Positions 54,988-64,000 are shown, counted from the first letter of the stretch. The stretch: DNA of 64,000 bases from an uncultured Christensenella sp. (GCA_910584975.1 CAJUEA010000001.1:205651-269650), one strand, 5' to 3'. Program-made: numbers and translations. The notes: a model not told the origin generated them from the letters alone.

Positions 54988-55227
54988 ATGAATGAACTTA
55001 TAAAACACATTGATAAACTGCACACCACAGAGCTTGGAGTTATAAGAATTCGCAGAAATCTAACTTTGGAAAATATCAATGTGGTAGAGTGGTGCAAAAG
55101 CAAATTAACTGACAATAATGCACAAATAACTCGCCAAGGCAAAAATTGGTATGCAACAATAGACAATGTAAAAATAACCATAAATGCCCACAGCTACACA
55201 ATAATAACTGCACATAAAATTAAGTGA
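54988..55227 (+). CDS. DUF3781 domain protein
   Basis: IDKLHTTELGVIRIRRNL motif. Start at ATG 54988. Confidence 0.65.
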   Translation: MNELIKHIDKLHTTELGVIRIRRNLTLENINVVEWCKSKLTDNNAQITRQGKNWYATIDNVKITINAHSYTIITAHKIK

Positions 55228-55515
55228 GTTTTATTTATTTTAAAATATTACAATTGTAAAAAACAAATTATGGTTATCTTTTTTTTGATTAATTTGCAAT
55301 AAACAAAAAAGTGCTTGCATTTTTAATCTTTTTTTGTTATTATGAATATGCTAGTAGTGGGAATAATTTTTGTGTCAGATATTATTTATAATTGCTTTTA
55401 TAATCTTAATTGTACATAATATTGCAATGAGATTTTAATATTTAGCATTTTTAATTATCTCATTATTTGTTAAAAATAGCTATAAGTTATATTTTTTGCA
55501 ATCAAACTTTTACTT

Positions 55516-55867
55516 GGGGATGTTTCGGATTCGACAAGTGGGTGTGAGATTGTGTAAGCGTGCCGTAGGTTCGTCTACGATAAAACGATCGTTTAAATTA
55601 AACGCAAAAAATAATAATCAATTGGCTTTCGCTGCGTAATTAGCGAGCCTGTCGCGCCTGTCGTCCTATCCGATAGGAGTGCGGCATCATTAAGAATAGG
55701 AAGGTCTTTTTGCCAGTGGTGTGGGGCAGAAAGATAAATCAGCACCTCATCAAAATGTAGCCTGTGCAAAAGGCGACATCGCGAAAAATTCAAAATTTGC
55801 ACTTCGCACGAAGAAAGCACAGTTAATCCCCGTTTGGACACGGGTTCAACCCCCGTCATCTCCACCA
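55516..55867 (+). ncRNA. ssrA: transfer-messenger RNA (tmRNA)
   Basis: 5' GGGGATG pairs with 3' CATCTCC plus ACCA. T-arm CGGGGGTTCAACCCCCG. Tag ORF GCA AAA AAT AAT AAT CAA TTG GCT TTC GCT GCG TAA encodes AKNNNQLAFAA. Confidence 0.95.
55853..55867 (+). repeat. attL-like direct repeat (3' end of ssrA)
   Basis: ccgtcatctccacca, identical to 60625-60639. Confidence 0.8.
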
Positions 55868-55875
55868 ATAGTGTC

Positions 55876-55915
55876 GGTGGAAAAGTCTTCTGATTTTTCT
55901 ACCGATTTTTATTAT
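55876..55915 (+). terminator. intrinsic terminator after ssrA
   Basis: Stem ggtggaaaa/ttttctacc (one G-U pair) followed by a T-rich tract. Confidence 0.6.
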
Positions 55916-56169
55916 TTTAGTGATATTTTTGCCCATTTTGACCAAATAAAAGACTTTGAAGAGGAAAATAGTCTTTACAAAGTCTTTATTTTTATTGAAA
56001 ACACTCGACACATTACCATATTATACTACATAATTGTGTCCTGTGAAAAGTGCGAGCTGATGGGAATTAAATTAATGAAATAAAATCATTATCGTTTTTT
56101 AATACTTAACATAGTGCTATTTGTAAAAACAAGTAAAAAACTTTATTGCAAAAAAATGTATTTTTTCAA

Positions 56170-56198
56170 TTGCAAACTTATTATTGTTGTGATATAAT
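56170..56198 (+). promoter_or_regulatory. sigma-A-type promoter of the islet cassette
   Basis: TTGCAA 56170-56175, 17-nt spacer, TGaTATAAT ending at 56198. GGAGGA RBS at 56214. Confidence 0.6.
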
Positions 56199-56222
56199 AA
56201 TAAAAAATACATCGGAGGAAAT

Positions 56223-58703
56223 ATGAGAGAGTTTCTAGCATATACAACAAAATTGCAAAATAGTAATTATAATCATATTGTTTTGATAAAAGAAATTGTT
56301 GACGATAGGCTTGTAAGTATTAGTGATGAAGATTATGCTTTAATTATGCCTGACCATAAACAAATTAGAGTTGATAACCAAGAAAAATGGCTTTTTAATG
56401 ATGATGAGAAAGCGATGATACCGGAAATTGAATTTTGCAAATATGATAATGGTTTGCTAATTTTGAAATATGATGAAACTGAGGCAAAAGGCGATATTTA
56501 CGCCCAAACAAAGTTCTTGGATAATTGTTCTTTGTTGCCGACAAATAAGTTTTTAAGAATAATACAAATAGAAAAATCAATAGATGATATAATGAAGAGT
56601 AAGTCTAATAGAATTGTGGACATACCATCATTTAGTAATTCAATAAATAGCAATATAATTTTGGAAATAGACGGTGTTTATTATGGTCCTATAAAAATAA
56701 GACCTTTTTATTCTAAAGATGGCAAAGTGCTAATCGATTTAAGTAAAGAGTACCAAATTAAAAAAATATCTTCAGATAAAGTTTCTGCTAAAATTGTAAA
56801 AACTAAAGTGGATAGAACTGCTGATGAAAGGATTGGTTTTTTTTGGAAAGAAGAAGATTGTTTTACGGATGAAGCTAGCCTAATAAGATTTTATGATCTT
56901 GAAAAAGAAAAAGAAAAAATTGACAAAATGCTTGATAAAATTGCTACATTAGGCAAAATTGATTTTTCTAAATTGCAAGCAGCTTTTACACAAATTAACC
57001 AAGAGGAATACAGTACAGATGAGTTAAACTCAATAAAATCTGTTTTTGAAAAAGGACAATTAAATTACGCTCAATTTTCCGGAATTGCACAATTGTTTTT
57101 CAACGAATTGGATGATGAGAAAAAAAAATTAATCAATAAATTTTTTGAAGACAATCCTACTGTAATAGAAGGAGAAAAGAAGAAGTATCTTCTAGAGAGC
57201 GACAAAGCAATTGCTGAACAAAATGAGAAATTTTCTAAACTATCAAACGACATTAAAAGTAAGGAAAAACTATTAGACGAACTTAATATTCACAAAAAAA
57301 ATATTGAAGACGAATTAGAACAAATTAAAGTTAATAAGCAAAAATTGTTGGAAGAGCAAGCTTCATTAAACAACGAAAAAATTAATCAGCAAAAAGCATG
57401 CATCGACGAATTAAAATCGGCCATAACAGATCTGGATAAACAAAAAGAAGAAAAACAAGAGGATATTGAAGCTAAAAATGCTAGATTAGTGGAATTGCAG
57501 AAAGACTTGCGTCGATATAAAACTGATTTAAATGGTTTTATTGATCAAATTATTAAAGAAAAAATTTCCGATGATGTTCGCGACCTTTTAATTAATAAAA
57601 TTGAGTTTAAAAATAGTAATAACGATATGGAAGATGATGCTTATAATACTACCAATGATGTGGAAAATTTTATTTCACTATTTGTTGATAATATAAGATC
57701 AGCTAGACCAGCTTATAGCTCGGATTTTATCAAGAATATTTTAATATGCATTTCGCAAAACTTTGCAACTATTTTTGCAGGACCTCCAGGAAGTGGAAAA
57801 ACCAGTATTTGTAATTTGCTTGCAAATGAATTTGGTGTTTATGATAAAGACAGATTCAGTATTGTTGAGGTGGAAAAAGGATGGACTACACCTAGAGATT
57901 TGATAGGATATTTTAATCCTTTTACGAATGCTGTTGAATCAAAGAACCCTAAATTTTTCAAACAGCTACAGATTAGTAATGAAGAATGTGAAAAACAAGT
58001 GACTGATGCTCCTGTAAATTTAGTAGTTTTGGATGAGGCAAATTTAAGTCCTATTGAATACTATTGGTCTTCATTTTCTTCAATCTACGATGATGTATGC
58101 AATGGTAATGTTGAACGACAAGTACATATAAATAATCAAAATAAATTTAAAATCGCAAAAACATTGAGGTTTTTGGGAACTATAAATTATGATTATACAA
58201 CAGAAATGTTATCTGAACGATTTTTAGATCGTGTATGGATTATTAGGTTAGATAATAATTTGTCAATTGATAATATAAACGGCTCAACTATTAAGATTGC
58301 AAATCAAATCCCTATTAATTTTTATGATATTATTGAATATATGACACCTAACACCACCGATTGTTTAGATGAAGATTTGGAAGTAAAATTGGGAAAAATA
58401 ATTGCACATTTAAAAGACATGAAAGTTAATGTTAGTTATAGGGCTTTAGAAAAAATTAAAAAATATTTAATAATCGCTGTTAACAAAGGAATTATTGAAG
58501 AGAAAGATTTAGCATTAGATTATGCTATTTTGCAGAAATTGATAATTTTGATAAATGGTTATGGTGAAGAATATGGCGAAAAAATAAATTTATTAAAAGA
58601 TTTGTGTAATGATTTTTCTTTAAAGAATACAGTTTTAGAACTTGATAAAATTATTGAGAATGGCAAAAAGAATAATGATAACTATTCGTATTTTGGTGTT
58701 TAA
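56223..58703 (+). CDS. McrB-like AAA+ (AAA_5-type) NTPase with an unknown N-terminal domain and a long coiled coil
   Basis: 826 aa. Walker A FAGPPGSGKTS (nt 57780-57806), Walker B VVLDEANLS (D604-E605), then LRFLGTINYDYTTEMLSERFLDRV. Residues ~215-450 are heptad-like K/E/L/N/Q-rich. Confidence 0.7.
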   Translation: MREFLAYTTKLQNSNYNHIVLIKEIVDDRLVSISDEDYALIMPDHKQIRVDNQEKWLFNDDEKAMIPEIEFCKYDNGLLILKYDETEAKGDIYAQTKFLDNCSLLPTNKFLRIIQIEKSIDDIMKSKSNRIVDIPSFSNSINSNIILEIDGVYYGPIKIRPFYSKDGKVLIDLSKEYQIKKISSDKVSAKIVKTKVDRTADERIGFFWKEEDCFTDEASLIRFYDLEKEKEKIDKMLDKIATLGKIDFSKLQAAFTQINQEEYSTDELNSIKSVFEKGQLNYAQFSGIAQLFFNELDDEKKKLINKFFEDNPTVIEGEKKKYLLESDKAIAEQNEKFSKLSNDIKSKEKLLDELNIHKKNIEDELEQIKVNKQKLLEEQASLNNEKINQQKACIDELKSAITDLDKQKEEKQEDIEAKNARLVELQKDLRRYKTDLNGFIDQIIKEKISDDVRDLLINKIEFKNSNNDMEDDAYNTTNDVENFISLFVDNIRSARPAYSSDFIKNILICISQNFATIFAGPPGSGKTSICNLLANEFGVYDKDRFSIVEVEKGWTTPRDLIGYFNPFTNAVESKNPKFFKQLQISNEECEKQVTDAPVNLVVLDEANLSPIEYYWSSFSSIYDDVCNGNVERQVHINNQNKFKIAKTLRFLGTINYDYTTEMLSERFLDRVWIIRLDNNLSIDNINGSTIKIANQIPINFYDIIEYMTPNTTDCLDEDLEVKLGKIIAHLKDMKVNVSYRALEKIKKYLIIAVNKGIIEEKDLALDYAILQKLIILINGYGEEYGEKINLLKDLCNDFSLKNTVLELDKIIENGKKNNDNYSYFGV

Positions 58704-60371
58704 ATGAACTTGAAGTTATATTGTGACAATACCATCATTGATATTGATTTTTGGAAAGAATATGAGCCTGGAGAAATTAGTGAATTAAACGATGATATTA
58801 TTTTCTATGATAATAAACAATATTCAATTTGTTTAGATGAAGAAGATACTTATGAATTATATGTGAATAATGAATTTGTTGAAGATCTAGCAAGCAATAT
58901 GAATTTCTCAAAGTTTTTTGGGAATGTTCAATTTTATTTGAAAGATAAAAAGACACAAAAAATTTTTTCTAGTGATTATTATTGTGTTTCTAGCGATAAA
59001 ATTTCTAGCGAAGATTTTGAAATTATGCTTAATGATATTTTAGAAAATTGTCCAACGCAAGTGTTAGTGAAATGCTTTGGTATGCATAATTCAGAATTGA
59101 ATCCAAACAAGAAAATATCATCAATAAACACAAAAATTAAAGCAATAGAAAACATTATCGTTTATATGGTCAAAAATTTGCATCATTTTGAAGTTAATGC
59201 AAAATCAAAACTTAGTCCAAAATATAAAAAGGTTGATTATTCAAATATTAGCGATATTGACTCAATAACGATTAGTCATATGGCAGAAAATTGCGATGAG
59301 TGGTTTAGGACATCAACGAGTGGAATAAAAATAAATAAAAAATATTTTTTGCCTAATAAAGTGATGACAAAAATAAGCGTTGACAATAAGGCAATATATG
59401 AAAACAAGTCAATTGTTAATTTTTTAAATTATTTAAGAAACGAGTTGTTATTAATAGAAAAAACTTTAGAAAATGCGAAAAATGGATTAATTAGGCATTA
59501 TAGAAAACTAAAAAAAATATATCCAAATTCAAATATTGTAGAATCGTATACTACATTTTATTACGAAAAATTAAATGATAAAGCTAGTGCCTTGAAAAAA
59601 GAATTGACGAAAATACTAATGAGGTTACAGAAATCATTTAGTTGTTGTGCTGATAATGGTTATTGCTTGCCAGCATACACACATATTTTTAGACAAATAC
59701 CTATGTATAGGCAAATGTTTTTATTTATGTTGGATTATGATAATTTAGGTGAAAATTTGGAAACAAAAATTAATTATTTTGTTGATATAATACCTGCATA
59801 TACGATATATGAGCTTTATTGTTTGAATCGAATTATTGAAGGAATTTCGATTCTTGGCGGTCAAAATAAAAATTTCTTTAATTTGGATAACGATGGGTTA
59901 ATTTTTAGTAGTTATTTAGAAATTGATGATGTAGTAATAAAACTTTATTATGAGCCTAAAATCATGAAGTCTCAGCAGAGTTTAAGTTTGGATGTGGCTG
60001 ACTATTATATCGATAGTCAAAATAATATTCAGCTTAAAAAGGTTGCTAAACAAGGATTTGTCCCTGATTTTGTTATCGAAATATTAAAAGATAATAAAAT
60101 CAATTATGTTATACTAGATGCTAAATTTAGCAAAAGGAGTTCTGTTGACAAATATCATCTTTCAAATATTATCAACAAATATGTGGTAAGTATTATTCCA
60201 AAAGATAGCTATACTTTTAAATTAATGACAGGAATAATGTGTTTAAACGGTGATAAAACAATAGTTAGAAATCAAAGAGCTAGTTTAGGATATGAGCAAA
60301 TTGAAATAATGCCTATTAATATCAATAAAAATAAAATTGATGTTAAAGATATATTAAATATGATATGTTGA
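58704..60371 (+). CDS. McrC/DUF2357-like protein with a C-terminal PD-(D/E)XK nuclease motif
   Basis: 555 aa. The ATG immediately follows the upstream TAA. VPD455FVIE...VILD472AK474F motif (nt 60066-60125). Confidence 0.65.
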   Translation: MNLKLYCDNTIIDIDFWKEYEPGEISELNDDIIFYDNKQYSICLDEEDTYELYVNNEFVEDLASNMNFSKFFGNVQFYLKDKKTQKIFSSDYYCVSSDKISSEDFEIMLNDILENCPTQVLVKCFGMHNSELNPNKKISSINTKIKAIENIIVYMVKNLHHFEVNAKSKLSPKYKKVDYSNISDIDSITISHMAENCDEWFRTSTSGIKINKKYFLPNKVMTKISVDNKAIYENKSIVNFLNYLRNELLLIEKTLENAKNGLIRHYRKLKKIYPNSNIVESYTTFYYEKLNDKASALKKELTKILMRLQKSFSCCADNGYCLPAYTHIFRQIPMYRQMFLFMLDYDNLGENLETKINYFVDIIPAYTIYELYCLNRIIEGISILGGQNKNFFNLDNDGLIFSSYLEIDDVVIKLYYEPKIMKSQQSLSLDVADYYIDSQNNIQLKKVAKQGFVPDFVIEILKDNKINYVILDAKFSKRSSVDKYHLSNIINKYVVSIIPKDSYTFKLMTGIMCLNGDKTIVRNQRASLGYEQIEIMPININKNKIDVKDILNMIC

Positions 60372-60451
60372 TTATAGAGTGAAATGGTATGACACTTTTC
60401 ACGCGACACACTTATGAAAATGCCACTTTTCACAGGGCATACACAATAACC

Positions 60452-60481
60452 AAAAAAGCACCAGTGTAGGTGCTTTTTTTG
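60452..60481 (+). terminator. intrinsic terminator of the cassette
   Basis: Stem agcacc/ggtgct with loop agtgta, followed by a T7 run. Confidence 0.75.
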
Positions 60482-60624
60482 TTATAGTTATCATACTAGG
60501 GGGGGGGACGCAAGGGAAAGCAGTTGCCAGTGGCAAGTGCGACCGAAGCAGGCGTGATAGCAAGGGTTTAGCCCCGAGCAAGCTATGCTTGCGAAGTGCA
60601 CATCAGTGCATTGTGGAGTAACCA

Positions 60625-60639
60625 CCGTCATCTCCACCA
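60625..60639 (+). repeat. attR-like direct repeat
   Basis: ccgtcatctccacca, second copy of the ssrA 3' end. Confidence 0.8.
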
Positions 60640-60644
60640 CATTT

Positions 60645-60688
60645 AACCTAATCTTAACCACTTTTGCGGCAAGATTAGGTTGTTTTTA
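60645..60688 (+). terminator. strong intrinsic terminator (probable displaced native ssrA terminator)
   Basis: Perfect 11-bp stem aacctaatctt/aagattaggtt followed by gttttt. Confidence 0.75.
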
Positions 60689-60924: not shown

Positions 60925-61512
60925 ATGAGTTTGGAACATAGGGCTTTTATTTTTGATGATGAAAGATTTGACAGCGAGCTGCGCAATTTGCTGTTGAATG
61001 CAGGATTATCAAATAATATCGATAAAATAAAGAATTTCATTGAACAAAATAAGTAAGAAATTAAAAATCCTTATTATGGTGGAATTATTGATTAAAACTG
61101 GGAAGACACGATGTCTGCAAAGGATGTTCAAGAGTATGCCGATTTTGCAATGACGGCTTATTACGAACCAGACGAAGATATGGGACTTGCTTATGCATGG
61201 GATGCAGTGATAAGCATTTTGAGATCAATTAAATATAAAAAAGCAGAGTATGCTGTGCTTGGTAAGCCTATAAAGAAAAAAGATTTTTGTGTGGATCCTG
61301 GTTGTTGTGGGTTGGGTATTGTCAAGGCTTCAGATGTGGGAAAAATATTTGAACAGCTTTCCGAGCTACAAGATGAGTTCAATGAAATGGCTGAGGAGTT
61401 CGAAAGTGATGACGATATAGAATGCGATGATATAATCTCTGCTTTCGAAGACCTTTTGTCATTGTATGAATCAGCTATGGACGAAGGTTGTGGACTATTG
61501 CTTACATTTTGA
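60925..61512 (+). pseudogene. ORF interrupted by two in-frame TAA codons (or two small adjacent ORFs in the same frame)
   Basis: ATG 60925 follows GGAGGA. TAA at 61054-61056 and 61093-61095 lie in the same frame as the 61111-61512 ORF. Confidence 0.35.
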
Positions 61513-61744
61513 TTTAGTTGTGTTTGAAAACAATATGTCAAAATGCAGTCAACAAAGAGTTTTAGTACAAAATGTTTAAACAATAAGCAAATTATCTACA
61601 AGATACGGAGGAAAGTCAATTATAATTTCATCTATGTTACTATTTCATTAATATTTTTGTGATATAATGAAAAAATAAAAGTAGTGAATTTATTGAAAGT
61701 TTTGCAAATTGTATTTTTTTATTTTATGAATAAGGAGAGGAAGT

Positions 61745-62095
61745 ATGAAAATAGGAGAAGTGTGTTTATTGACTAATGATGTTGTTCGTTTGTCGAATTT
61801 TTATAAAATAGTATTTAATATTGAAAACAATTGCAATGATGAAGTCCATCAATTTATTTTCTCACAAGAAACAACACTTGCTATTTATAACGATGGAACC
61901 CAGAGAAAAAATAACTTCCAAAATATTTGCTTGGCATTTACGGTTGATGATGTTGATAGTGAATTTGAAAGATTAAAAACACTTGGTGTTGAGATCGTGG
62001 CACCACCTACGATGCGACCTTGGGGTGCAAAAAATATGAGCTTTTTTGACCCAGATAAAAATTTGATTATTTTTAGAAGTTTTCCTAATAAATAA
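61745..62095 (+). CDS. VOC (glyoxalase/bleomycin-resistance) family protein
   Basis: 116 aa. AAGGAGAGG RBS. C-terminal PWGAKNMSFFDPDKNLI motif typical of the VOC fold. Confidence 0.7.
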   Translation: MKIGEVCLLTNDVVRLSNFYKIVFNIENNCNDEVHQFIFSQETTLAIYNDGTQRKNNFQNICLAFTVDDVDSEFERLKTLGVEIVAPPTMRPWGAKNMSFFDPDKNLIIFRSFPNK

Positions 62096-62178
62096 ATTGA
62101 AATTTGCACAATCAATTAATCACTATTGATTTTATTTTTCAAAAATATAATTTATTATATTATTAAATACATAACTGT

Positions 62179-63216
62179 TCATATGAATTTTTCAATAGTT
62201 AAACTTAAAATTATTTTAAATATGTCGGATTGTTTATAATTCATTTTTTGCATAGCATAAGTAAAAGAAGAATGTTTGCAAATAAATGGCATAGTGGCTA
62301 TGTCAAATAAAAATTCTTCACCTTTATCATTTATACGAAAATCTGCTCTACCATAACAACTAATTCCTAAAGCTGGAACTATCTTGTTTAATATTTTTTG
62401 AAATCTATTTGGGCAATTAGATTCAAACAAAGAAAAAGTATAGTCATTTTTTGCTGATGAATTAGCATCTAAAAAAGTGTTATTGTTAATTAGAATTTCA
62501 ACTGGTGGTAAAGCAATAACTTGTTCTTTCCATACAAAGAAGGGACATTCTATTTCTTTACCTTCAATAAATTCTTGAATTATCATTGTTTGATTATTTA
62601 TAAAACTTAATTCATCATAATTAAAATCTTTATAATTATAAATATTTTCAGAAATTCCAATACTGCCACTTTCTGCAATTGGTTTAATTATAATTTTCTT
62701 TAAATTATTTGTGGGTGGTTTGGTTCCTATCCAGTTTTTATTTGGTAAATAAGCATATGTTTTGGGACAATTAACATTTAATTGAGATAAAAATTTATTA
62801 TATACAAATTTATTTCTACATAGTGATTGTACAAAAGATCCCGAACCAGTATAAGGTATTTTTAACAAATTACAAAATGCTGGAATTAAGCTTTTTTTAC
62901 CTTCTTTCAAACCATTTCTTGCGAAATTAAACACTATTATATCTTGTTGATCTAATTTTTTATTTAAAATATCAGACATGAACTTTAACTCGTTGAAATA
63001 TACTATATAATTCATTTTCAATTCTTTAATTGAATTTAAAATGTCATTATATTCTTGCTCAGTAAATTTTTCTATGTCGATTGCATCTTCAAGTTGAATT
63101 CCAATATCATCTGAATAACCTTGTACATTTACAAGCAAAACAATAATTTTAGTTATTTGCTTATTAATTTTCTCACTATAATTATATAATTCAGAAATTT
63201 CATTATTTTTTTTCAT
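62179..63216 (-). CDS. divergent ATP-grasp enzyme (D-Ala-D-Ala ligase-like)
   Basis: 345 aa. IIKPIAESGSIGIS, QEFIEGKEIE and GRADFRI motifs in Ddl order. The E-x-N Mg site reads D-I-A. Confidence 0.65.
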   Translation of the reverse strand: MKKNNEISELYNYSEKINKQITKIIVLLVNVQGYSDDIGIQLEDAIDIEKFTEQEYNDILNSIKELKMNYIVYFNELKFMSDILNKKLDQQDIIVFNFARNGLKEGKKSLIPAFCNLLKIPYTGSGSFVQSLCRNKFVYNKFLSQLNVNCPKTYAYLPNKNWIGTKPPTNNLKKIIIKPIAESGSIGISENIYNYKDFNYDELSFINNQTMIIQEFIEGKEIECPFFVWKEQVIALPPVEILINNNTFLDANSSAKNDYTFSLFESNCPNRFQKILNKIVPALGISCYGRADFRINDKGEEFLFDIATMPFICKHSSFTYAMQKMNYKQSDIFKIILSLTIEKFI

Positions 63217-63222
63217 AAGGCC

Positions 63223-63765
63223 TCATATTTTCCTAATATTTTTGTTGATTTCGGATAAAAATTTATCGTTAATAATAATTGGTTCTTTTTTGAGTTCTTT
63301 AAGTATTAAATCATTTAATTTTGTTGCATTAGTTAAATTTAATGGTTTTTGTGTTACATATAGAGTTTTTGCTTCAGGGCAATGAGTATGTCTACCATAA
63401 GATAATAAAATGCCATGACTAAAAAAATATTTTTTTGAATAATCATTTTCAAAGTTTTTTGAATTAAGTAATATAATTAAACAAATATCGTTATCTTCTT
63501 CACTTCTTACATTGATAAAGATAGCATTTTCTTCAATTTCATATGTTCCTTTATAATTATATTTGTTATTATCATCATCATCAATATAATCAAAATTTAT
63601 AAGTATTTCATTATTTTCATATTTGAGATGAGATGTGTCTATTGTGTTAACGTCTAATGTGTTAGCTGTATAAATATATAAGTTTGATAAATATTTTATA
63701 ATTTTTTTATCATCAGTATTTTGACTAGTTTGATTTTGTGTAACAGAATTAAAAATATCTCCCAT
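63223..63765 (-). CDS. hypothetical protein
   Basis: 180 aa. AAAGGAG RBS. Its stop lies 6 nt before the ATP-grasp start. No motif recognised. Confidence 0.55.
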   Translation of the reverse strand: MGDIFNSVTQNQTSQNTDDKKIIKYLSNLYIYTANTLDVNTIDTSHLKYENNEILINFDYIDDDDNNKYNYKGTYEIEENAIFINVRSEEDNDICLIILLNSKNFENDYSKKYFFSHGILLSYGRHTHCPEAKTLYVTQKPLNLTNATKLNDLILKELKKEPIIINDKFLSEINKNIRKI

Positions 63766-63767
63766 GG

Positions 63768-64000
63768 TTAATCTCCTTTTAAATTTTTACAGTAGTTTAA
63801 GAAATCGCGAACCTCATTTACAATATTTTTGATATTGTATTCAGTTTTATCCCCTTTATTAAATTCTAATAAATATACATATAAATTATATATATTAGCC
63901 ATTAATTGTTTTTCTTTTTTAAATATAATAAAATCCGATGAGTTTACAAGTGATTGTAGACATGAAAAATTAATATGTTTTGTATTATTATCAATTTTTA
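63768..64000 (-). CDS. hypothetical protein, 5'-truncated by the window edge
   Basis: Hand translation of the minus strand gives an open frame ...KHINFSCLQSLVNSSDFIIFKKEKQLMANIYNLYVYLLEFNKGDKTEYNIKNIVNEVRDFLNYCKNLKGD*. Stop at 63768-63770, 2 nt before the next ATG. Confidence 0.5.
   Translation of the reverse strand, partial: KIDNNTKHINFSCLQSLVNSSDFIIFKKEKQLMANIYNLYVYLLEFNKGDKTEYNIKNIVNEVRDFLNYCKNLKGD

What the first reader, a model, noticed from the sequence alone, without database searches (positions are those of the whole stretch)
55853..60688. Islet bounded by exact 15-nt repeats of the tmRNA 3' end, with twin terminators and no integrase
ccgtcatctccacca, the acceptor 3' end of ssrA, occurs at 55853-55867 and again at 60625-60639. 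Each copy is followed within 10 nt by an intrinsic terminator (55876-55915 and 60645-60688). That is expected if the distal repeat plus the perfect 11-bp-stem terminator is the displaced native ssrA end. The 4.77 kb in between is visibly more AT-rich and holds only the two-gene cassette. No integrase or recombinase ORF is present. AT-rich accessory DNA also continues to the right of attR. This suggests either a decayed islet or one unit of a tandem island array whose integrase lies beyond the window.
Basis: seen in the sequence. Interest (0 to 1): 0.7.

Follow-up and report, generated by a model that had tools for sequence, protein, structure and literature searches.

The report
Decayed composite islet at tmRNA gene
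The 4.8 kb after the tmRNA gene is a real insertion, shown by an empty site in a related strain; it is a stack of integrase-less remnants carrying a McrBC-like anti-phage cassette in a busy but ordinary integration hotspot.

Summary
The 15-mer CCGTCATCTCCACCA ends the tmRNA gene (55516-55867) and recurs once, at 60625-60639. Terminators follow both copies.

The main prediction also holds. Two contigs from a related strain join the tmRNA CCA end directly to CATTTAACC..., which is window 55867 joined to 60640. At least five other occupants sit at the same point in other strains. All diverge immediately after the CCA end. Only one carries a recombinase, a large serine recombinase.

No integrase or third repeat lies in the islet or in the 7.5 kb beyond the window.

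The interval is composite, with four parts:
- a 167-nt frame with its own terminator;
- a 4.4-kb unit with inverted-repeat ends, holding an NxD-type McrB-like ATPase and a McrC-like nuclease;
- a 181-nt remnant, made of a third terminator plus a GC-rich piece, that directly follows ssrA in other strains;
- the distal repeat.

The core of the cassette is 99% identical to a copy beside a prophage elsewhere. Distant relatives of the cassette sit next to tyrosine or serine integrases.

Verdict: a decayed, CIME-like ssrA islet. It is a new member of a known kind and of modest interest.

The parts
55516..55867 (+). tmRNA gene (ssrA), tag AKNNNQLAFAA, intact
   Evidence: ARAGORN; Rfam RF00023 at 160 bits, E 3.6e-64
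55853..55867 (+). Proximal copy of the 15-mer (attL-like core), the acceptor 3' strand plus CCA of the tmRNA
   Evidence: All seven alleles diverge at the base after 55867
55868..56034 (+). Frame A0: 167 nt of islet DNA that supplies a terminator to ssrA (stem 55873-55906, then a T-run). Seen only together with the cassette (window and L013)
56029..56052 (+). Left inverted-repeat arm CATAATTGTGTCCTGTGAAAAGTG. The possible element terminus is TGTGT at 56035, preceded by ATAAT
   Evidence: the repeat finder I9. The 13-mer CCTGTGAAAAGTG is present only here and inverted at 60424-60436. The sequences are printed
56170..56198 (+). Promoter-like site TTGCAA-17-TATAAT with an extended -10 (TGTGATATAAT). 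Identity to the prophage-adjacent copy starts exactly at TGTG (56188)
56188..60443 (+). Cassette core M. About 99% identical to L043-L046 up to 60420; identity resumes after a 32-nt indel and reaches the shared right end ...GGGCATACACA
56223..58703 (+). Gene 1, 826 aa: N-terminal domain, long coiled coil, McrB-like AAA+ NTPase (Walker A GPPGSGKT, Walker B VLDEAN, NxD motif N655-Y-D657)
   Evidence: PADLOC PDC-M26A, 5e-25; alignment invariants; hhalign versus E. coli McrB, probability 98.1%, E 9e-14
58704..60371 (+). Gene 2, 555 aa: McrC-like, a DUF2357-like N-terminal part plus a PD-(D/E)xK nuclease (P454-D455 ... D472-A-K474)
   Evidence: Pfam DUF2357, weak. Family of 434 representatives. 37 of 52 members hit DUF2357 and 17 of 52 hit PDDEXK_7. 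Invariant residues
60393..60447 (+). Two tandem copies of the right repeat arm (60393-60416 and 60424-60447). The second ends ...CATACACA at 60443 and is followed by ATAAC
60444..60624 (+). Remnant G: ATAACC, then terminator 60452-60479, then the GC-rich segment 60498-60624. In L058, L063 and L066 this sequence follows the tmRNA CCA directly
60625..60639 (+). Distal copy of the 15-mer (attR-like); 20 of 21 identity from 60619
60640..60688 (+). Native ssrA trailer and terminator (stem 60644-60682). Identical in position to the empty-site alleles
   Evidence: L001 homology resumes at 60641

Best explanation
Window 55868-60639 is foreign DNA lodged at the 3' end of the single tmRNA gene. This position is an integration hotspot in this species. 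The DNA is a decayed, composite, integrase-less islet of the kind called a CIME.

The proposed history has three steps.
1. An element integrated site-specifically into the acceptor-stem/CCA end of ssrA. It duplicated 15-21 nt and displaced the native trailer and terminator to 60640-60688. Only its ends survive, as remnant G (60444-60624) plus the distal repeat.
2. Its interior, still seen in other strains as an HTH fragment plus a FAD-protein module, was deleted between short internal repeats. Its recombinase was also lost.
3. A second piece then came to lie between the CCA end and G. It consists of frame A0, which carries its own ssrA terminator, and a 4.4-kb unit with inverted-repeat ends.

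That unit expresses a two-gene McrBC-family system from its own extended -10 promoter. The system pairs an NxD-type McrB-like NTPase with a coiled coil and a DUF2357/PD-DxK nuclease. Its likely role is restriction-type defence against phages.

Today the islet cannot move on its own. It probably spreads and is replaced by homologous recombination in the conserved flanks, or conceivably by a recombinase supplied in trans.

Shown: the insertion, the exact boundaries, the empty site, the absence of a recombinase, the composite make-up, the kinship of the cassette and its second location.

Inferred: the order of events, the type of the lost recombinase and the defence function.
For: Empty site and boundaries:
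- L061 and L065 are empty-site alleles.
- Seven alleles all diverge at the base after the CCA end.
- L001 homology with the window stops at 55867 and resumes at 60641.

Composite structure:
- L058, L063 and L066 carry G directly after ssrA, without A0 or the cassette.
- In L013, G is split by a 1.68-kb HTH-fragment/FAD insert flanked by GGCGTGATAGC.
- L020 and L058 have deletion derivatives.
- Three terminators are present, one at the head of each layer.

No recombinase:
- None in the islet.
- None within 7.5 kb to the right, and no third repeat.

Decay:
- The islet's non-coding ends differ by 12-16% between the window and L013, against 1% in the genes.

Cargo:
- McrB-like by hhalign, 98.1%.
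- NxD motif invariant.
- The partner's family hits DUF2357 and PDDEXK_7.

Portability:
- 99% identity to a copy next to a siphovirus-like prophage end in L043-L046.

Intact-looking relatives:
- A 24-26% identical cassette lies 1 kb from a tyrosine integrase in L069 and directly before two large serine recombinases in L070.
- Another abuts a tRNA 3' end in L014.

Precedent:
- Dehalococcoides ssrA islands have a 20-bp ssrA repeat, and 16 of them carry an integration module (PMC3146451).
- The CIME definition comes from PMC5704250.
Against: - No allele was found that has this islet, or G, together with a recombinase. The integrase-mediated origin of the 15-mer repeat is therefore inferred from precedent.
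- The empty site comes from a more distant strain (flanks 91-94% identical), not from a near-isogenic one.
- The junction between ssrA and A0 has no long repeat, only CA/ATA microhomology. The second event may have been illegitimate recombination, a serine recombinase or transposition.
- The defence function rests on homology only.
- AlphaFold models were too poor to use (pLDDT 39 and 43).
- A direct profile comparison of gene 2 with E. coli McrC was not significant (probability 9%).
Confidence: 0.75

Rival explanations
1. The islet is a still-mobile satellite (a working CIME or mobilizable islet). Its perfect 15-nt attL and attR would be recombined by an integrase encoded elsewhere in the genome or on an incoming element that targets the same ssrA end.
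For: - Both 15-mers are perfect, while the adjacent islet DNA has diverged 12-16% between strains.
- The same site is used by at least one element with a large serine recombinase (L001 and L054).
- Logan contigs from several samples break exactly at the tmRNA end, so alleles coexist in populations.
- Cis-mobilisation of CIMEs by accretion is documented (PMC5704250).
Against: - The proximal copy is conserved because it is tmRNA, so its perfection says little.
- The islet ends share nothing with the ends of the L001 island, so that recombinase is unlikely to recognise them.
- In L020 and L058 the distal repeat has simply been deleted.
- No excision junction or circular form was seen.
Confidence: 0.15
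2. The GC-rich 142 nt ending in the distal 15-mer (60498-60639) is a functional tRNA-like or tmRNA-like small RNA gene of the islet. On this reading the repeat reflects a shared acceptor-end structure rather than an att scar.
For: - The segment has about 55% GC in a 27% GC context.
- It folds into a closed multi-branch structure in which the 5' G-run pairs with GTCATCTCC, leaving an ACCA-like tail (-59.3 kcal/mol, z -3.2).
- It lies between two terminators.
Against: - There is no Rfam match, even with lax filters on the segment alone.
- There is no consensus promoter.
- The G-run that would form the closing stem varies: GGGGGGGGGAC, GGGGTGTGAAC and GGGGGTGAAC. A hairpin base is deleted in L013.
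- The segment is split by an insertion in L013, truncated in L020 and L058, and reduced to 26 nt in L043.
- The T-arm-like hairpin lacks the T-loop consensus.
Confidence: 0.05
3. The interval is one unit of a larger tandem island array whose integrase lies just outside the window.
For: - Accessory AT-rich DNA does continue to the right, at 61530-64453.
- Tandem ssrA arrays exist in Dehalococcoides.
Against: - L007 and L049 cover 7.5 kb beyond the window end. They hold OmdA-like, DUF4180, acetyltransferase, IspDF and glycosyltransferase genes, with no recombinase and no third 15-mer.
- The left side is a conserved sugar operon.
- The right-hand variable block is bounded by different breakpoints and has no ssrA repeat.
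Confidence: 0.03

Closest known systems
Genomic islands integrated at the tmRNA gene. Examples are the Dehalococcoides ssrA-GIs (PMC3146451), and from my own knowledge the ssrA-linked islands and prophages surveyed by Williams 2003, 'Traffic at the tmRNA gene'
   Same: - Insertion at the 3' end of the single-copy ssrA.
[quoted passage not shown]
- Low GC.
- Stacking of several units downstream of ssrA.
- Many units without an integration module.
- In another allele here (L001), a roughly 500-aa serine recombinase lies on the reverse strand next to attL, as DsiB does.
   Different: - This particular islet has no recombinase at all.
- Only the outermost layer keeps an ssrA repeat.
- The crossover lies in the acceptor/CCA end rather than in the T-loop.
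- The cargo is a defence cassette rather than a catabolic operon.
CIMEs, the cis-mobilizable elements of streptococci (definition in PMC5704250)
   Same: [quoted passage not shown] It sits in a tRNA-type target where other elements accrete.
   Different: - No trace of conjugation genes, so the parent may have been a prophage or a small island rather than an ICE or IME.
- Cis-mobilisation was not tested.
- The element is a composite of at least two remnants.
McrBC type IV restriction systems of the NxD clade, including CoCoNuTs (PMC11090510)
   Same: - A two-gene operon.
- A McrB-like AAA+ NTPase with NxD in place of NxxD, and a long coiled coil N-terminal to it.
- A partner with a DUF2357-type N-terminal region and a PD-(D/E)xK nuclease.
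   Different: - No cold-shock, YTH, Ig-like or zinc-ribbon domain was detected.
- Sequence similarity to the described families is weak. PADLOC files gene 1 under the candidate system PDC-M26A.
- The subtype was not assigned.
Chromosomal defence or integration hotspots that turn over by homologous recombination in conserved flanks (a general concept, from my own knowledge)
   Same: One locus between conserved genes holds at least seven alternative contents in one species. Several encode defence-type genes (HEPN_Apea, HNH with a methyltransferase, GmrSD, the McrBC-like pair). Most have no recombinase.
   Different: Here the left border is fixed to the nucleotide at the tmRNA CCA end. That points to site-specific entry events in addition to homologous exchange.

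Membership tests
tmRNA-gene (ssrA) genomic island | Lies immediately 3' of an intact tmRNA gene | tested here: met
   The tmRNA gene is 55516-55867 and the islet starts at 55868
tmRNA-gene (ssrA) genomic island | [quoted passage not shown] | tested here: met
   15 of 15 exact, 20 of 21 extended; 0 of 100 shuffles
tmRNA-gene (ssrA) genomic island | Absent from an otherwise syntenic relative (empty site) | tested here: met
   L061 and L065 join the CCA end to CATTTAACC...
tmRNA-gene (ssrA) genomic island | Encodes its own site-specific recombinase | tested here: not met
   No recombinase domain in either ORF or in the flanks
CIME (cis-mobilizable element) | Keeps attL and attR but lacks integration and transfer genes | tested here: met
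   Perfect 15-mers at both ends and no recombinase or transfer genes
CIME (cis-mobilizable element) | Derived by decay from an ICE or IME | tested here: inconclusive
   There are no conjugation remnants. Distant cassette relatives sit next to tyrosine or serine integrases in proviral contigs
CIME (cis-mobilizable element) | Can be excised or moved with an accreted helper element | not testable with these tools
   Needs PCR for junctions or circles, or mating assays
McrBC family, NxD clade / CoCoNuT | McrB-like AAA+ NTPase domain | tested here: met
   hhalign of A5 versus E. coli McrB: probability 98.1%, E 9e-14, residues 502-790 versus 177-438
McrBC family, NxD clade / CoCoNuT | NxD in place of the NxxD signature | tested here: met
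   G652, T653, N655 and D657 are invariant in 10 homologues and align to the McrB MNTAD motif
McrBC family, NxD clade / CoCoNuT | Extensive coiled coil fused N-terminal to the NTPase | tested here: inconclusive
   Residues 250-470 hit SMC and JetC coiled-coil profiles. The model has a continuous helix at 347-432, but at low confidence
McrBC family, NxD clade / CoCoNuT | McrC-like partner: DUF2357 plus PD-(D/E)xK nuclease | tested here: met
   At family level, 37 of 52 members hit DUF2357 and 17 of 52 hit PDDEXK_7. D455, D472 and K474 are invariant. Direct hhalign to EcoK McrC was not significant, although the DAK motifs aligned
McrBC family, NxD clade / CoCoNuT | Accessory CSD/YTH domains in CnuB; Ig-like domain and zinc ribbon in CnuC | tested here: inconclusive
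   No Pfam hits. The structure models were too poor for fold search
Non-autonomous DDE-type transposable element (for the unit 56035-60443) | Terminal inverted repeats with TG...CA ends | tested here: inconclusive
   The arms are TGTGTCCTGTGAAAAGTG and CACTTTTCACAGGGCATACACA. The exact 13-mer occurs only at these two places, inverted. However, 21 of 24 ungapped identity is reached in 9 of 60 shuffles
Non-autonomous DDE-type transposable element (for the unit 56035-60443) | Target-site duplication | tested here: inconclusive
   The flanks are ATAAT and ATAAC, a 4 of 5 match in AT-rich DNA
Non-autonomous DDE-type transposable element (for the unit 56035-60443) | Further copies with both ends at other sites, or a cognate transposase | tested here: not met
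   The only other context (L043-L046) keeps the right end but lacks the left arm. No matches in IMG/VR

The most novel reading that the evidence does not exclude
The 4.4-kb unit 56035-60443 may be a previously undescribed non-autonomous, inverted-repeat-bounded mobile cassette. It has TGTG...CACA ends, three copies of a roughly 24-nt subterminal motif and flanking ATAA(T/C). It would ferry an NxD-type McrBC defence pair between loci, here an ssrA islet and a prophage-adjacent site that share 99% identity and the same right end to the base. An unknown transposase or recombinase would move it in trans. Breakpoints would fall at the extended -10 promoter TGTGATATAAT.
Probability: 0.12. Interest if true: 0.6.

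Novelty: new member of a known kind. Interest (0 to 1): 0.35.

Why it matters
The locus is a clean, population-resolved example of how the tmRNA gene end works as a docking point.
- One species shows an empty site plus at least six alternative occupants.
- Every allele starts at the same nucleotide after the CCA end.
- In the alleles examined, the occupant supplies its own terminator to ssrA.
- Most occupants have lost their recombinase.

It also shows that an integrase-less islet can be a stack of scars rather than one decayed element. Annotation pipelines that call islands from repeat pairs would miss this.

The cargo adds a small, divergent two-gene member to the NxD branch of McrBC systems. 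The same cassette sits in two unrelated contexts at 99% identity, which makes it a convenient candidate for a phage-defence assay.

None of this changes current concepts.

Tried and rejected
- Collection scans. I scanned the genome collection with the tmRNA 3' 26-mer and the JGI metagenomes with an empty-site pattern. Each gave one unrelated hit: a tRNA-Ala-like gene (anticodon CGC) in a MAG labelled Bacteroidaceae, and an unrelated GC-rich contig.
- Empty site. It was reached only later, through variants of flanking proteins.
- GC-rich segment. BLAST against the phage and plasmid collections found nothing. IMG/VR scans for the segment and for the repeat arms also found nothing. An IMG/VR scan with the tmRNA 17-mer found only generic tmRNA or tRNA ends. 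Rfam found nothing on the segment.
- Cassette proteins. PDB sequence searches gave only P-loop noise. NCBIfam gave nothing useful.
- Structure models. AlphaFold2 with shallow alignments gave pLDDT 39.5 and 43.4, so I ran no fold search.
- Cassette in cultured phages. tblastn gave no hit for gene 2 and one weak hit for gene 1.
- Ideas dropped. I considered that the GC-rich segment is a diverged 3' copy of a foreign tmRNA or an HTH-gene remnant. Only patchy similarity exists, so I dropped both. I also compared the 346-aa proteins of L001 and L043; they are unrelated.
- Organism. I could not name it: no source gives names for its proteins.
Full report
**Observation.** The 15-mer CCGTCATCTCCACCA occurs exactly twice in the 64-kb window, at 55853-55867 and 60625-60639. 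None of 100 shuffles gave as many matches as observed. The first copy is the last 15 nt of a complete tmRNA gene at 55516-55867, with tag AKNNNQLAFAA (ARAGORN; Rfam RF00023, 160 bits). Identity extends to 20 of 21 nt.

Hairpins with T-tails follow both copies. One has its stem at 55873-55906 (-20.8 kcal/mol, z -7.3). The other has its stem at 60644-60682 (-15.5 kcal/mol, z -5.1).

The interval has GC 0.24-0.31 against roughly 0.35-0.38 elsewhere. It contains two convincing ORFs, 56223-58703 and 58704-60371. Neither ORF has a recombinase domain in Pfam, PADLOC or NCBIfam.

**The insertion is real, and the predicted empty site exists.** I recovered contigs that encode the same or near-identical flanking proteins. 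This gave an allelic series for one species.

In L061 and L065 the tmRNA ends ...CCGTCATCTCCACCA and runs directly into CATTTAACCTAATCTTAACCACTTTTGCGACAAGATTAGGTTGTTTTTAC. That is window 55867 joined to 60640, followed by the DUF1877-like gene and the core genes. The flanks of these contigs are 91-94% identical to the window, so the strain is related but not near-isogenic.

The distal repeat and the terminator at 60644-60682 are therefore the displaced native ssrA trailer.

**The site is a hotspot.** Seven different sequences follow the tmRNA CCA end, and all diverge at the very next base:
- the empty site;
- the window type, also seen in L013 at 97.7% identity;
- a type in which CCACCA is followed by ATAACCAAAAAAGCACC..., which is window 60444 onward (L058, L063, L066);
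- an 8-kb island with a 504-aa large serine recombinase on the reverse strand next to ssrA, plus HNH, methyltransferase and HEPN_Apea genes (L001, L054);
- relatives of that island without the recombinase but with the same right end (L059, L062, L064, L067);
- an element encoding a Rep protein (PF02407 plus a helicase domain; L003, L004, L057);
- one further type (L060).

L001 homology to the window stops at 55867 and resumes at 60641. These are the same boundaries as the repeat pair. Among the 48 longest contigs read, only two were empty.

**No integrase, and no array continuing outward.** L007 and L049 extend 7.5 kb beyond the window end. They hold genes for an OmdA-like protein, DUF4180, an acetyltransferase, IspDF and glycosyltransferases. 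They hold no recombinase and no third copy of the 15-mer. The left side is a conserved fucose/rhamnose-type operon.

The AT-rich DNA to the right, 61530-64453, is a separate indel that is absent in L020 and L001. It encodes a glyoxalase, an ATP-grasp enzyme and two unknown proteins, and it has different breakpoints.

**The interval is composite.** The L058-type alleles show that 60444-60588 is a unit that can sit directly at the ssrA end. It consists of ATAACC, the 60452-60479 terminator and the first part of the GC-rich segment. In those alleles it continues into an HTH-gene fragment and a 362-aa FAD-binding protein.

In L013 the same FAD module sits inside the GC-rich segment, at window position about 60561. 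It is flanked by GGCGTGATAGC..., and the contig ends as the GC-rich sequence resumes. In L020 and L058 the module joins window 60720 directly, which deletes the distal repeat and the native terminator.

The simplest reading has three parts:
1. An older island integrated at ssrA and made the 15-21-nt repeat. Its ends are now remnant G, 60444-60624.
2. In the window lineage its interior was lost between short internal repeats.
3. Frame A0 (55868-56034, with its own terminator) plus the cassette later came to lie between the CCA end and G.

Each layer starts with a terminator placed within 10 nt of its left edge. That is what an element needs if it displaces the ssrA terminator. The junction of the second layer shows only CA/ATA microhomology, so its mechanism is open.

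**The GC-rich segment.** The segment 60498-60639 folds with its 5' G-run paired to the 15-mer (-59.3 kcal/mol, z -3.2). This suggested a tRNA-like RNA. I consider that unlikely for four reasons:
- Rfam finds nothing.
- There is no consensus promoter.
- The G-run and one hairpin vary between alleles.
- The segment is split, truncated or reduced to 26 nt in other contexts.

**The cassette.** Gene 1 (826 aa) has a central coiled-coil region that hits SMC and JetC profiles. It also matches the PADLOC candidate PDC-M26A at 5e-25.

Its C-terminal AAA+ domain aligns to the GTPase domain of E. coli McrB with 98.1% probability. Ten homologues share Walker A, Walker B and an invariant G-T-x-N-x-D (N655, D657). 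This is the NxD variant that defines the clade containing CoCoNuTs (PMC11090510).

Gene 2 (555 aa) belongs to a family of 434 representative clusters. Of 52 members, 37 hit DUF2357 and 17 hit PDDEXK_7. P454-D455 and D472-x-K474 are invariant. A direct profile comparison with E. coli McrC was not significant, although it aligned the DAK motifs.

AlphaFold models were unusable. I therefore call the pair a McrBC-family, NxD-clade system of unassigned subtype. Its defence function is inferred from homology.

**The cassette is portable.** Window 56188-60420 is 98.9% identical to L043-L046. After a 32-nt indel the identity continues to the same last bases...GGGCATACACA, at 60443.

In L043-L046 the cassette follows the tape-measure, Dit, tail, reverse-transcriptase, XhlA and holin genes of a GC-45% prophage. 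It sits in GC-27% DNA. Identity begins exactly at the extended -10 element TGTGATATAAT.

In the window, three copies of a roughly 24-nt motif bracket the cassette. One is inverted at 56029-56052 and two are direct at 60393-60447. The exact 10-mer CACTTTTCAC occurs only at these three places in 64 kb, against 0.24 expected. The 13-mer CCTGTGAAAAGTG occurs only as this inverted pair. The outer ends read TGTGT...ACACA and are flanked by ATAAT and ATAAC.

This looks like a non-autonomous transposon, but the support is weak:
- 21 of 24 ungapped identity is reached in 9 of 60 shuffles.
- The other context lacks the left arm.
- No further copies were found.

I report it as an open lead, not a conclusion.

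Between the window and L013 the genes differ by 1% but the islet's non-coding ends differ by 12-16%. The core has therefore been exchanged more recently than its frame.

**Relatives with recombinases.** In IMG/VR proviral contigs, cassettes 24-26% identical keep the two-gene layout, a large AAA+ protein followed by a roughly 600-aa partner. One lies 1 kb from a tyrosine integrase (L069). Another lies directly upstream of two large serine recombinases (L070). A further relative abuts the 3' end of a tRNA gene (L014).

So the family typically rides at the integrase-proximal or att-proximal end of integrated elements. This fits the loss of a recombinase here.

**Comparison with known systems.** The closest described case is the Dehalococcoides ssrA islands. 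They have a 20-bp repeat of the ssrA end, tandem stacking and a CcrB-like serine recombinase on the reverse strand beside attL. Sixteen of these islands carry such an integration module (PMC3146451).

The window islet also matches the definition of a CIME: att sites kept, integration and transfer genes lost (PMC5704250). Its descent from a conjugative element is not shown.

It fails the 'own recombinase' criterion of an autonomous island. It is best filed as a decayed, composite member of the ssrA-island kind. This is ordinary for specialists, with a modestly interesting cargo and allelic series.

Noticed in passing
L003, L004 and L057, directly after the tmRNA (e.g. L003:10881-18031): In other strains the same ssrA end is occupied by an element encoding a CRESS-like Rep (PF02407 plus an RNA_helicase domain), a P-loop protein and a 724-aa coiled-coil/Flg_new protein. 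No integrase appears in the 7 kb seen. It may be an integrated ssDNA phage or plasmid.
   Followed up: partly
L001:10881-18885; L059, L062, L064, L067: An 8-kb island with a 504-aa large serine recombinase, HNH_4, a methyltransferase, HEPN_Apea and a CoiA-like nuclease. It is flanked by two diverged copies of the ssrA terminator hairpin. Shorter derivatives keep the same right end but lack the recombinase.
   Followed up: partly
window 55223-55261 (between the DUF3781 gene and ssrA); L055:18905-20697: Some strains carry a 1.8-kb insertion upstream of ssrA that encodes a 414-aa protein without Pfam hits and an HTH_26 protein.
   Followed up: no
window 61530-64000 (it continues to about 64453 in L007): A second variable block holds a glyoxalase, an ATP-grasp/D-Ala-D-Ala-ligase-like gene, and 180-aa and 163-aa unknown proteins, at GC 0.21-0.26. 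It is absent in L020 and L001. L001 homology ends at 61668, inside a promoter-like TTTTTGTGATATAAT. This is the same extended -10 word at which cassette identity to L043 begins (56188).
   Followed up: partly
window 60925-61512: The DUF1877-like gene is split by a stop codon in the window, into a 43/60-aa ORF plus a 133-aa ORF. It is intact (174-212 aa) in L001, L020, L061 and L065.
   Followed up: partly
window 60499-60507: A G9 homopolymer heads the GC-rich segment. Other alleles have GGGGTGTGA (L013) or GGGGGTGA (L058).
   Followed up: yes
window 55838 and 55544; 60520 and 60547 (ends of L010, L011, L020, L050-L053): Logan contigs from several samples start or stop at exactly these coordinates. 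This suggests assembly-graph branch points at the tmRNA end and inside the GC-rich segment, meaning coexisting alleles or a short repeat in the community. The branch at 60520-60547 is not explained by the alleles recovered.
   Followed up: partly
L043:7576-8703: A reverse transcriptase (PHROG 1423, E 2e-121) lies between the tail genes and the lysis genes of the prophage next to the second cassette copy. It may be a diversity-generating retroelement.
   Followed up: no
L058:16140-17880: In the FAD-module allele the downstream variable block carries a GmrSD-type (type IV restriction) gene pair. This is another defence gene in the same neighbourhood.
   Followed up: no
L014:7955-8188: Downstream of a cassette relative only 28% identical lies GAAAAGTGCCAGACACAAATA. 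It resembles the window's right-end motif (CACTTTTCAC...ACACAATAA), with the inner 8-mer inverted. The contig then ends in the 3' end of a tRNA gene.
   Followed up: no
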